A stretch of 64,000 nt of DNA from the sequence record OZ335959.1; one strand, 5' to 3'. The notes below the pieces were generated by a model. It did no database searches. It was not told where the DNA came from and worked only from the letters and a program-made list of their open reading frames with translations. Position numbers and translations under genes: made by a program. Shown here in pieces: positions 59,557-62,868 of this stretch (within the stretch, counting starts at the first letter, position 1; every line of letters starts with the position of its first letter). This DNA is from a phage.

Positions 59557-62500
59557 ATGGCTACTTTAAAACAAATACAATTTAAAAGAAGCAAAACCGC
59601 AGGAGCACGTCCTGCCGCTTCAGTATTAGCCGAAGGTGAATTGGCTATAAACTTAAAAGACCGTGTACTTTTTACTAAAGATGACCAAGGAAATATTATT
59701 GATCTGGGTTTTGCTAAAGGCGGTAGCATTGACGGGAATGTTATTCATATAGGAAATTATAATCAAACTGGTGATTATACTTTAAATGGAACCTTCACTC
59801 AGACAGGTAATTTTAATTTAACTGGTATTGCTCGAGTAACTCGTGATATTATTGCCGCTGGGCAGATTATGACTGAAGGCGGAGAACTTATTACAAAAAG
59901 TTCAGGTACAGCACATGTTCGTTTTTTCGATAGCAATAGCCGCGAACGCGGAATCATTTATTCACCGGCTAATAATGGATTAACTACACAAGTACTTAAT
60001 ATCAGGGTTCAAGATTACGCCGCTGGTAGTGAAAGCACTTATGCATTTTCAGGCAATGGCCTATTTACTTCACCTGAAGTATCAGCATGGAAATCTATGT
60101 CAACTCCTCAGATTTTGACCGATAAAGTTATTACAAATGGGAAGAAGACAGGCGATTATGACATCTATTCATTAGCAAATAATACTCCATTGGCAGAAAG
60201 TGAAACAGCTATTAACCACCTCCGTATTATGCGAAATGCCGTAGGATCTGGTATATTCCATGAAGTTAAAGATAATGACGGGATAACCTGGTACACCGGC
60301 GAGGGATTGGAGGCCTATCTTTGGTCGTTTACCTGGTCCGGTGGATTGAAAGCAGGCCATTCTGTTTCTATAGGTCTTCCAGGTGGCTCTAAAGGATATT
60401 CTGAATTAGGGACTTCTTCAATTGCTCTTGGTGATAATGACACCGGGTTAAAATGGCATCAGGATGGATATTATTTCAGCGTCAATAATGGAACGAAAAC
60501 ATTTTTATTTAGTCCTAGCGAAACAACTAGCCTAAGAAAATTTGTAGCTGGATATTCTACTAACGGAACCGATTTAACTACTCCTCCTACTGAAAACTAT
60601 GCTCTCGCTACTGTCGTGACATATCACGATAATAACGCGTTTGGAGATGGTCAGACTCTTTTGGGATATTATCAAGGCGGTAGATATCATCATTATTTCC
60701 GCGGTAAGGGTACTACAAACATTAATACTCACGGCGGTTTGTTAGTTACTCCTGGTAATATTGACGTTATTGGCGGCTTAATTAATATTAACGGCCGTGG
60801 TAGTGCTTCGACATTACTATTTAGTAGCTATACTTCCGGAGAAAGCTCTGTTGATAATATGAACATACGCGTTTGGGGTAATACGTTTACTAATCCTAGT
60901 GTAGGTAATCGTAAAAACGTTATGGAAATTTCTGACGCAACTAGTTGGATGAGTTATATTCAAAGACTTACTACTGGTGAAGTAGAAATGAACGTCAATG
61001 GTTCATTTGAATCATCCGGTGTTATTGCTGGAAATAGAGGAGTTCATACAACAGGCGAAATTTCATCTGGAACAGTGAATGCGCTTCGCATTTGGAACGA
61101 TGACTATGGTGCTATTTTCCGTCGTTCAGAAAACAGTCTTCATATTATTCCGACTGCTTACGGTGAAGGCAAAAATGGCAATATCGGTCCACTTCGTCCG
61201 TTTAGCATGGCTTTAGATACAGGTAAGGTCGTTATTCCTGATTTAGATTTAAGTTATGCCGGATTCCCTGCAAACGGGTATATCAGATTTGGCGGTCATG
61301 GAGCAGGCGCGGGTGGTTATGATATTCAGTATGTTCAAGCAGCTCCTGTTTTCCAGGAAATTGATGATGATGCTGTAAGCAAATATTATCCTATTGTTAA
61401 ACAGAAGTTTCTAAACGGTAAATCCGTTTGGTCTTTAGGTACTGAAATTAGTTCAGGTACATTCGTTATTCATCATCTGAAAGAAGATGGTTCACAAGGC
61501 CATACGTCTCGTTTTAATCAAGACGGTACTGTTAACTTCCCAGATAACGTTCTGGTCGGCGGCGGTGAAGCTGCTATTGCTCGTAATGGTAATATTTTCT
61601 CGGATATTTGGAAAACGTTTACTTCAGCAGGAGACATTACAAATATTCACGATGCAATAGCTACCCGTGTTGCTAAAGAAGGCGATACGATGACCGGTAA
61701 GTTGACTTTATCTGCTGGAAATGATGCCCTTGTTTTAACTGCAGGCGTGGGTGCTTCATCGCACATCCGTAGTGATGTAGGTGGTACAGGTAACTGGTAT
61801 ATAGGCAAAGGCGGCGGCGACAATGGTCTAGGTTTTTATAGTTACATTACACAAGGCGGTGTATACATAACAAATAATGGCGAAATATCGCTTTCTCCTC
61901 AAGGTCAAGGAACATTTAATTTTAATAGAGACCGCCTTCATATAAACGGTACACAATGGGTTGCGCATAAATCTGGCGCCTGGGGTGACCAATGGGGTTT
62001 AGAAGCTCCTATATTTGTAGATTTTGGATACGTCAGCAATGACTGCTATTATCCTATTATTAAAGGAAAATCTGGTATTACTAACGAAGGATATTTTTCC
62101 GGCGTAGATTTTGGTATGCGTCGTATCACTAATAACTGGGCGCAAGGTATTATTCGTGTAGGTAACCAGGAAAACGGTTCTGACCCACAAGCTATATATG
62201 AATTTCACCATAATGGAACTCTGTATGTTCCTAACATGGTTAAAACTGGAGCAAGATTATCAGCTGGCGGTGGTGACCCGGTGTGGACTGGGCCATGTCT
62301 TGTTATAGGTGACAATGATACTGGTTTAGTCCATGGCGGCGATGGCCGAATCAATATGGTTGCCAATGGTGTTCATATTGCTTCATGGTCATCTGCTTAT
62401 CATCTCCATGAAGGTCTTTGGGATACTACTGGTGCTTTGTGGACTGAGCAAGGAAGAGCTATTATTTCTTTTGGTCATTTAATCCAACAGAGTGATGCCT

Positions 62501-62868
62501 ATTCTACATTTGTCCGTGATGTTTATGTCCGTTCTGATATTCGCGTTAAAAAAGACCTCGTTAAATTTGAAAATGCTTCTCAGAAGCTTTCTAAAATTAA
62601 CGGTTACACTTATATGCAGAAGCGAGGCCTGGATGAGGAAGGTAATCAGAAATGGGAACCTAACGCCGGTTTAATTGCTCAAGAAGTTCAAGCTATTTTA
62701 CCAGAATTAGTTGAAGGCGACCCTGATGGTGAAGCTTTACTTCGTTTGAACTATAACGGTGTAATTGGTTTAAATACAGCTGCAATCAATGAGCATACTG
62801 CAGAAATTGCAGAACTTAAATCAGAAATCGAAGAACTTAAAAAAATAGTTAAATCATTGTTAAAATAA
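59557..62868 (+). CDS. 37: Long tail fibre distal subunit with C-terminal coiled-coil / chaperone-like region, 1103 aa
   Basis: N-terminus [30 protein letters not shown]; longer than T4 gp37 (recalled 1026 aa); followed by adhesin-type gp38. Confidence 0.93.

What the first reader, a model, noticed from the sequence alone, without database searches (positions are those of the whole stretch)
62470..62868. Gene 37 ends in a coiled-coil / chaperone-like segment that may be removed
gp37 is 1103 aa, against 1026 aa recalled for T4. Its last roughly 100 residues ([23 protein letters not shown]...[22 protein letters not shown]) resemble the intramolecular chaperone domains of phage fibres and spikes that are cleaved off after trimerisation, leaving the tip to which gp38 binds.
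Basis: inference. Interest (0 to 1): 0.35.

Follow-up and report, generated by a model that had tools for sequence, protein, structure and literature searches.

The report
Self-cleaving chaperone end of gp37

Summary
Gene 37 (59557..62868, +) encodes 1103 aa. Its C-terminus matches Pfam Peptidase_S74, "Chaperone of endosialidase" (residues 993-1052, E 2.3e-12, 47 bits against a cutoff of 22). It also matches the Salmonella phage S16 gp37 tip construct (PDB 6F45_A, E 1e-43).

The domain starts at S993 (nt 62533), not 62470. It opens with the family's S-D-x-R-x-K motif (S993, R996, K998). Ser, Asp and Lys are kept in 161-163 of 164 aligned homologues. A model of the domain finds the solved chaperones as the top three structures: MyRF ICA, endosialidase IMC and GA-1 IMC.

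A T2/S16-type gp38 adhesin follows directly (62900..63679), with the conserved N-terminal tryptophans.

Most likely mechanism: the domain helps the gp37 tip trimerise, then cuts itself off between R992 and S993. That removes 12.4 kDa and leaves a 992-aa, 106.5-kDa fibre whose exposed DVYVR tip docks gp38. Cleavage itself is inferred, not measured here.

This is published for T2/T6 (Drexler 1986) and S16 (Dunne 2018). The comparison with T4 is misleading: the two gp37 proteins align only over residues 1-680.

Verdict: correct interpretation, already known, low interest.

The parts
59557..62868 (+). Gene 37, long tail fibre distal subunit precursor, 1103 aa, 118.8 kDa
   Evidence: ORF. 94.9% nt identity to Shigella phage KNP5 and about 89-90% to AR1/PP01 gene 37 plus 38. 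AR1 gene 37 is the same length and is annotated 'long tail fiber distal subunit'. Mass.
62470..62532 (+). Last 21 residues of the predicted mature gp37 (972-992, [19 protein letters not shown]). They end in the DVYVR strand that is predicted to form the gp38 docking face.
   Evidence: Aligns with the S16 gp37 tip in 6F45_A. DVYVR corresponds to DLNVS in S16 and DVYIR in the fPS phages, described as the docking strand in PMC7917993. Inference by homology.
62530..62535 (+). Predicted autocleavage site, R992^S993
   Evidence: Position. The S16 site is S^S in DLNVS^SDRRIKK and the predicted fPS site is R^S in DVYIR^SDGRLKI. The crystallised GA-1 chaperone chain 3GUD starts at the equivalent Ser, SDERHK.
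62533..62550 (+). Catalytic motif S993-D-I-R996-V-K998 (Ser/Lys dyad plus Arg)
   Evidence: Among 164 aligned homologous stretches, S is kept in 161, D in 163, K in 163 and R in 127. D and K are invariant, and S and R at least 90% conserved, in alignment A1. The role of the dyad and the Arg is from PMC3742443.
62533..62865 (+). Intramolecular chaperone (Peptidase_S74 / IMC) domain, residues 993-1103, 111 aa, 12.4 kDa, predicted to be released
   Evidence: Pfam PF13884. 6F45_A at E 1e-43. Profile hits to MyRF ICA 7DC3, tail fibre 8JOV, GA-1 3GUD and T5 pb1 8HQZ. Fold hits to 7DC3, 3GW6 and 3GUD. It is the only copy in the window.
62752..62862 (+).
   Evidence: AlphaFold2 helix at model residues 135-171, which are gp37 1066-1102. 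Mean pLDDT is 84-93 for most of it and about 73 at the end. Heptad count.
62873..62888 (+). GC-rich UUCG-tetraloop hairpin between the gene 37 stop codon and the gene 38 ribosome-binding site
   Evidence: Fold of -17.8 kcal/mol, z -2.95. No T-run follows on the + strand.
62900..63679 (+). Gene 38, T2/S16-type receptor-binding adhesin (259 aa) that caps the cleaved gp37 tip
   Evidence: Pfam Gp38_N (E 1.8e-21) and GP38 (E 5e-72). 6F45_D at E 3.8e-53, and 9V85 (PP01 gp38 RBD) with one mismatch over the shared RBD sequence, residues 41-259. W7, W20 and W34 align with the S16 gp38 tryptophans.

Best explanation
Residues 993-1103 of gp37 (nt 62533..62865) are an intramolecular chaperone domain of the Peptidase_S74 family.

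Proposed sequence of events: three nascent gp37 chains are brought into register by this C-terminal domain, whose long terminal helices bundle together. This nucleates folding of the trimeric distal tip. Once the trimer is correctly folded, S993, activated by K998 and helped by R996, cleaves the R992-S993 peptide bond. Each 12.4-kDa chaperone fragment leaves. The mature fibre is 992 aa (106.5 kDa per chain) and ends in ...DVYVR. The flat tip exposed this way is capped by the N-terminal tryptophan-bearing attachment domain of the gp38 adhesin encoded immediately downstream, and gp38 then binds the host receptor.

Shown here: domain membership, an intact catalytic motif, a C-terminal position, the fold, the partner gp38, and homology to the crystallised S16 gp37-gp38 complex.

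Inferred by homology: the chaperone role, the cleavage itself, its exact site, and gp38 docking.
For: - Pfam PF13884 above its gathering score, at residues 993-1052.
- PDB 6F45_A, the S16 gp37 construct, at E 1e-43, aligned through to the last residue.
- A profile search hits MyRF ICA 7DC3 (1.3e-13), tail fibre 8JOV (4.3e-13), GA-1 chaperone 3GUD (1.4e-5; that chain starts at the equivalent Ser) and T5 L-shaped fibre 8HQZ (1.2e-3).
- An AF2 model of the domain (10-residue-block mean pLDDT about 68-93 over model residues 71-172, gp37 1002-1103; 50 for the block that holds S993-K998) has 7DC3, 3GW6 and 3GUD as its top three distinct structures.
- S993, D994 and K998 are conserved in 161-163 of 164 homologous stretches.
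- In most of the best 150 representative hits the domain lies at the extreme C-terminus of long proteins.
- gp38 of T2/S16 type lies directly downstream, with the conserved Trp residues.
- The DNA encoding the domain is at least 90% identical in all 181 phage records that match it. Only 14 of 104 records reach that for the 336 nt just upstream, so the domain is under stronger constraint than the tip.
- Literature: autocleavage of the last 113 residues of S16 gp37 exposes the gp38 docking surface (PMC7917993). [quoted passage not shown] The Ser-Lys dyad and Arg are positioned only after trimerisation (PMC3742443).
Against: - There are no protein-level data for this phage or its closest relatives (KNP5, AR1, PP01). 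The PP01 papers I read do not mention cleavage.
- The residue before the scissile bond is Arg here and Ser in S16, so the exact site rests on alignment.
- The structural model is a monomer built from a shallow 12-sequence alignment. Its first 66 residues are unreliable, and TM-scores to the solved chaperones are modest (0.40-0.58).
- Trimer geometry and the coiled-coil were not modelled.
Confidence: 0.9

Rival explanations
1. The domain is a genuine Peptidase_S74 homologue but is not removed. It stays on the virion as a helical cap or structural extension of the fibre tip.
For: No mass data exist for this phage. The residue before the putative scissile bond (R992) differs from S16.
Against: The Ser/Lys/Arg motif is intact and is nearly invariant in relatives. 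gp38 of the type that docks on the cleaved tip is encoded next door. Processing has been reported for T2/T6 and S16. The fPS phages share the same ...R^SD... context and were likewise predicted to cleave.
Confidence: 0.04
2. The segment is removed, but by a separate phage or host protease rather than by its own Ser-Lys dyad. This was the open possibility in the 1986 T2 work.
For: Cleavage chemistry was not tested here. The 1986 title, as cited, says only 'proteolytic processing'.
Against: The domain belongs to a family whose members self-cleave through the conserved Ser-Lys dyad (PMC3742443; S16 'autocleaved'). The dyad is conserved here. The recombinant GA-1 chaperone chain begins exactly at the Ser.
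Confidence: 0.04
3. The domain is an evolutionary remnant with no chaperone role. Folding of the gp37 tip would depend only on trans-acting factors such as gp57A, as in T4.
For: T4 gp37 folds without such a domain, using gp38 and gp57A (PMC3004832).
Against: The coding DNA is more conserved than the adjacent tip: all 181 records are at least 90% identical, against 14 of 104 upstream. The family has 15,289 representatives. This phage's gp38 is an adhesin, not the T4-type chaperone.
Confidence: 0.02

Closest known systems
Salmonella phage S16 gp37 C-terminal intramolecular chaperone with the gp38 adhesin (PDB 6F45; Dunne et al. 2018, as relayed in PMC7917993)
   Same: Same gene order (37 then 38). 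Same domain at the same place; the last 190 residues align at E 1e-43. Same SDxRxKK motif. gp38 has the same N-terminal attachment domain and tryptophans. In S16 the last 113 residues are released; here the prediction is 111.
   Different: The residue before the cut is Arg (DVYVR^S) rather than Ser (DLNVS^S). The shaft just upstream carries a 12-residue insertion relative to S16. The gp38 receptor-binding loops are of PP01 type rather than S16 type.
T2/T6 gp37 proteolytic processing (Drexler, Riede & Henning 1986, J Mol Biol 191:267, cited in PMC3157838)
   Same: A T-even long tail fibre whose gp37 C-terminus is cleaved and then capped by a gp38 adhesin of about 260 aa.
   Different: I could not read the 1986 paper itself, so the reported fragment size and site were not compared. 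According to the PP01 study, T2 gp37 and PP01-type gp38 are 'likely' incompatible at the docking interface, so this is a different docking subtype.
Endosialidase (K1F endoNF) C-terminal intramolecular chaperone, PDB 3GW6; founder of Pfam Peptidase_S74
   Same: Pfam family membership. The fold match ranks second among distinct structures (probability 0.98). Ser-Lys dyad at the N-terminal edge. C-terminal position on a trimeric phage adhesin.
   Different: Low sequence identity (11-13% in the Foldseek alignment) and a poor global superposition (rmsd about 19 A, TMq 0.40). The 3GW6 construct also contains stalk residues, and the query model's N-terminal part is unreliable. The endosialidase is a tailspike enzyme, not a T-even fibre, and has no gp38-like cap.
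Yersinia phages fPS-2/-65/-90 gp37 (PMC7917993)
   Same: T4-like phages with gp37 ending in DVYIR^SDGRLKI and a predicted Arg^Ser cleavage. That is almost the same junction as DVYVR^SDIRVKK here, and they also carry a gp38 adhesin.
   Different: Cleavage there is also a prediction. I did not compare the rest of those proteins with this one.
T4 gp37 with the gp38/gp57A chaperones
   Same: Homologous N-terminal two-thirds of gp37 (residues 1-680, 34% identity) and the same locus order 34-35-36-37-38-t.
   Different: T4 gp37 has no Peptidase_S74 domain. It ends in Collar plus Phage_fiber repeats and binds the receptor itself. T4 gp38 is an unrelated trans-acting chaperone.
MyRF ICA domain (PDB 7DC3) and phage T5 L-shaped tail fibre pb1 (PDB 8HQZ)
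   Same: Same domain family by profile (E 1.3e-13 and 1.2e-3). MyRF is the best fold match (E 3.5e-6).
   Different: MyRF is a eukaryotic membrane-bound transcription factor in which cleavage releases the N-terminal part for nuclear entry. T5 pb1 binds its receptor directly, without a gp38 cap.

Membership tests
Peptidase_S74 / intramolecular chaperone (IMC, ICA) domain | Sequence match to Pfam PF13884 above the curated gathering score | tested here: met
   47.4 bits on the whole protein and 52 bits on the last 132 aa, against a cutoff of 22; profile positions 1-57 of 58.
Peptidase_S74 / intramolecular chaperone (IMC, ICA) domain | Catalytic Ser and Lys five residues apart (S-D-x-R-x-K) at the N-terminal edge of the domain | tested here: met
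   S993-D-I-R996-V-K998. S is kept in 161, D in 163 and K in 163 of 164 homologous stretches. The dyad's role is from PMC3742443.
Peptidase_S74 / intramolecular chaperone (IMC, ICA) domain | Located at the extreme C-terminus of a trimeric fibre or spike protein | tested here: met
   The domain ends at the stop codon of gene 37. The same is true of most of the 150 best representative hits.
Peptidase_S74 / intramolecular chaperone (IMC, ICA) domain | Fold like the solved chaperones (3GW6, 3GUD, 7DC3) | tested here: met
   These three entries are the top three distinct structures in Foldseek against the PDB (E 3.5e-6, 8.6e-3 and 0.1; probabilities 1.00, 0.98 and 0.96). The next hit has probability 0.12. 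Caveat: a monomer model, with 10-residue-block mean pLDDT about 68-93 in the domain, and TM-scores of 0.35-0.58.
Peptidase_S74 / intramolecular chaperone (IMC, ICA) domain | Self-cleavage after trimerisation and absence from the mature protein | not testable with these tools
   Needs mass mapping of virion gp37 or expression of wild type against S993A/K998A. Expected masses are 118.8 kDa for the precursor, 106.5 kDa mature and 12.4 kDa for the fragment.
Peptidase_S74 / intramolecular chaperone (IMC, ICA) domain | Needed for folding and trimerisation of the upstream fibre | not testable with these tools
   Needs a truncation experiment. The only indirect support is the higher DNA conservation than in the adjacent tip.
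T2/S16-type long tail fibre tip (gp37 with IMC plus gp38 adhesin) | gp38 adhesin with a Gp38_N attachment domain and a glycine-rich GP38 domain encoded directly downstream of gene 37 | tested here: met
   PF21721 at E 1.8e-21 and PF05268 at E 5.1e-72, at 62900..63679. 6F45_D at E 3.8e-53.
T2/S16-type long tail fibre tip (gp37 with IMC plus gp38 adhesin) | Conserved N-terminal tryptophans of gp38 that plug into the cleaved gp37 tip | tested here: met
   W7, W20 and W34 align with tryptophans of S16 gp38. Their role is from PMC7917993.
T2/S16-type long tail fibre tip (gp37 with IMC plus gp38 adhesin) | gp37 distal tip homologous to the crystallised S16 tip | tested here: met
   6F45_A at E 1.1e-43 over residues 914-1103 of this gp37.
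T4-type long tail fibre tip (gp37 binds the receptor itself; gp38 is a trans chaperone) | gp37 C-terminal Collar domain and Phage_fiber repeats forming the needle tip | tested here: not met
   These Pfam families hit T4 gp37 but not this gp37. There is no significant alignment beyond residue 680 and no T4 gp37 chain among the PDB hits.

The most novel reading that the evidence does not exclude
The most novel reading I cannot exclude is that the released 12.4-kDa chaperone trimer is more than waste. It might have a second role in the infected cell, for example timing or gating the loading of gp38 onto the fibre tip. Alternatively, the Arg^Ser junction might cleave only partially and give a mixed population of capped and uncapped fibres. 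Nothing in my results points to either. They are simply untested.
Probability: 0.03. Interest if true: 0.4.

Novelty: already known. Interest (0 to 1): 0.08.

Why it matters
For annotation, the mature fibre should be described as residues 1-992 and the gp38 docking face as the ...DVYVR end. That is useful for anyone engineering host range by swapping gp37 tips or gp38 adhesins, because the tip and the gp38 N-terminus must be kept as a compatible pair (the PP01/T2 incompatibility is). It adds no new biology. The domain, its mechanism and its role in T2-type fibres are all published.

Tried and rejected
- The word-indexed protein search with the last 132 aa gave only 11 hits, mostly 170-aa 'tail fiber domain-containing proteins'. 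I checked whether these are free-standing chaperone genes. They are not: they are fragments of gene 37 starting at Met934. In KX452694.1 the gene is split into 929 + 170 aa ORFs. In ABESBY010000008.1 the 1101-aa ORF is intact, but only the 170-aa call is on record.
- I looked for a second chaperone copy on other fibre genes in the window, by six-frame phmmer and profile search. There is none.
- I tried to read Dunne et al. 2018. It is not held, so the S16 facts come second-hand from PMC7917993.
- I looked for cleavage statements in two PP01 papers. There are none.
- The Leiman 2010 review has no statement about T2 processing.
- Two scripts failed because L003 was not available to the sandbox. 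The ORF listing replaced them.

Full report
**What is there.** The coordinates 62470-62868 cover the last 132 codons and the stop codon of a 1103-aa ORF (59557..62868, + strand). This ORF sits in the canonical T-even long-tail-fibre cluster: a 1289-aa gp34, a 371-aa gp35, a 218-aa gp36, this gp37, a glycine-rich gp38, and then the start of the holin gene t.
- The gene 37 plus 38 DNA is 94.9% identical to Shigella phage KNP5 and about 89-90% identical to Escherichia phages AR1 and PP01.
- AR1 gene 37 has the same length and is annotated as the distal long-tail-fibre subunit.
KKDLVKF... starts at residue 998.
- No ORF of 50 aa or more lies on the opposite strand under the segment.

**Is the resemblance real?** Yes.
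- Pfam Peptidase_S74 ('Chaperone of endosialidase', PF13884) matches residues 993-1052 at E 2.3e-12 (47 bits; gathering score 22). It covers profile positions 1-57 of 58.
- The last 190 residues align with the crystallised Salmonella phage S16 gp37 construct (6F45_A) at E 1.1e-43, up to the very last residue.
- An exhaustive HMMER search of 1.84 billion representative proteins found 15,289 relatives at E<=0.001. In most of the best 150, the match lies at the extreme C-terminus of long proteins.
- A profile built from diverse short members hits the solved members of the family: MyRF ICA (7DC3, 1.3e-13), a tail fibre (8JOV, 4.3e-13), the GA-1 neck-appendage chaperone (3GUD, 1.4e-5) and the T5 L-shaped fibre (8HQZ, 1.2e-3).
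- An AlphaFold2 model of residues 932-1103 is unreliable for its first 66 residues, which need the trimer. From about residue 1002 to the end, 10-residue-block mean pLDDT is 68-93. The block that holds S993-K998 averages only 50.
- Foldseek against the PDB returns 7DC3, 3GW6 (the endosialidase 'Intramolecular Chaperone') and 3GUD as the top three distinct structures. A sharp drop in probability follows.

**Anatomy.**
It opens with S993-D-I-R996-V-K998.
- In 164 homologous stretches, Ser is kept in 161, Asp in 163, Lys in 163 and Arg in 127. Other near-invariant positions are G1016, G1038, A1041, Q1042, P1049 and Y1066.
- In endosialidases the equivalent Ser and Lys form the catalytic dyad. An Arg stabilises the oxyanion, and these residues are thought to be correctly positioned only after folding and trimerisation (PMC3742443).
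- The crystallised GA-1 chaperone chain starts exactly at the equivalent Ser.
- The S16 site is reported as DLNVS^SDRRIKK, and DVYIR^SDGRLKI is predicted for the fPS phages (PMC7917993).
- By alignment the cut here is DVYVR992^S993DIRVKK. It would release 111 aa (12.4 kDa) and leave a 992-aa chain of 106.5 kDa.
In the best heptad register over the last 45 residues, 8 of 13 a/d positions are I/L/M/V. That is suggestive, but it is not a coiled-coil prediction proper.

**The partner.** Gene 38 starts at the ATG at 62900, not at the TTG listed mechanically at 62888.
- It matches Pfam Gp38_N (E 1.8e-21, positions 1-40 of 40) and GP38 (E 5e-72).
- It aligns with S16 gp38 (6F45_D, E 3.8e-53).
- W7, W20 and W34 align with tryptophans of S16 gp38. 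PMC7917993 describes conserved N-terminal tryptophans of gp38 as prongs that insert into pockets of the cleaved gp37 tip.

**Comparison with T4.**
- T4 gene 37 does encode 1026 aa. However, the two gp37 proteins align only over residues 1-680 of this one, at 34% identity.
- T4 gp37 carries Collar and Phage_fiber domains and no Peptidase_S74 domain. T4 gp38 has no Pfam match in this scan, unlike this phage's gp38, and the T4 record annotates it as a tail-fibre assembly protein unrelated to the T2-subfamily adhesin.
- The extra 77 residues are therefore not 'T4 plus a chaperone'. The whole distal third has been exchanged, as the literature on T-even fibre mosaicism says (PMC3157838).

**Conservation.**
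- The 336 nt that encode the chaperone match 181 phage records, all at 90% identity or more and at full length.
- The 336 nt just upstream match 104 records, of which only 14 reach 90%.
- The cleavage site thus coincides with a mosaic boundary between a variable tip and a conserved chaperone module.
- The window holds no second copy of the domain.

**Mechanism and status.** The best-supported account has three steps:
1. The C-terminal domain aligns three gp37 chains and nucleates tip folding.
2. Its Ser-Lys dyad then cuts the R992-S993 bond.
3. The fragments leave, and gp38 caps the exposed DVYVR tip.

Family membership, motif, position, fold and partner are shown here. The chaperone role, the cleavage and the docking are inferred from homology to S16 and from the T2/T6 literature. 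I put this at about 0.9. The alternatives each sit at a few per cent: the domain is retained, another protease makes the cut, or the domain is a functionless remnant.

**Novelty.** None.
- Proteolytic processing of T2 gp37 was published in 1986 (reference).
- The chaperone family is curated in Pfam.
- The gp37-IMC/gp38 arrangement was solved structurally for S16.
- A nearly identical ...R^SD... junction has already been discussed for the fPS Yersinia phages.

The finding is ordinary annotation knowledge.

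Noticed in passing
window 62900..63679 (gene 38): Residues 41-259 of gp38 differ by a single residue (S against N near position 237) from the crystallised receptor-binding domain of phage PP01 gp38 (PDB 9V85). The mBio 2026 paper shows that this domain binds OmpC of E. coli O157. This phage therefore probably uses the same OmpC-type receptor.
   Followed up: partly
window 62873..62888: A perfect GGGGC-UUCG-GCCCC tetraloop hairpin sits between the gene 37 stop codon and the GGAGG ribosome-binding site of gene 38 (-17.8 kcal/mol for the 56-nt context, z -2.95). No T-run follows on the + strand, so it does not look like a + strand terminator. The scan flags it as terminator-like only on the - strand.
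   Followed up: partly
L003 2168..5513 (KX452694.1) and L004 3208..6513 (ABESBY010000008.1): Public databases hold several 170-aa 'tail fiber domain-containing protein [Escherichia coli]' entries that are just the C-terminus of gene 37 from Met934 onwards. In KX452694.1 gene 37 is broken into 929 + 170 aa ORFs and gene 38 is also split. In the 'E. coli' assembly contig (a 167-kb phage genome) the 1101-aa ORF is intact but only the 170-aa product is on record.
   Followed up: yes
window 62197..62868: There is a sharp change in DNA conservation at the predicted cleavage site. For the chaperone-coding 336 nt, all 181 matching phage records are at least 90% identical. For the 336 nt upstream, only 14 of 104 are. 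This points to a recombination or mosaic boundary.
   Followed up: partly
window 60904..61206 (gp37 residues 450-550): gp37 carries a match to Pfam Gp34_trimer (PF21446, E 4.7e-8, above its cutoff), a domain named after the proximal fibre subunit. T4 gp37 shows a weaker match, below the cutoff, at residues 491-627.
   Followed up: no
window 62888 vs 62900: The mechanical ORF list starts gene 38 at the TTG at 62888, inside the hairpin. The Pfam Gp38_N match (protein 1-40 to profile 1-40) and the S16 alignment show that the true start is the ATG at 62900, 7 nt after GGAGG.
   Followed up: yes
window 63711..64000: The ORF that starts at 63711 and runs off the window end (MAAPRISFSPSDILLGVLDRLFKDN...) sits where relatives (AR1, T4, L003, L004) have the holin gene t. 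The locus order 34-35-36-37-38-t is therefore conserved.
   Followed up: no
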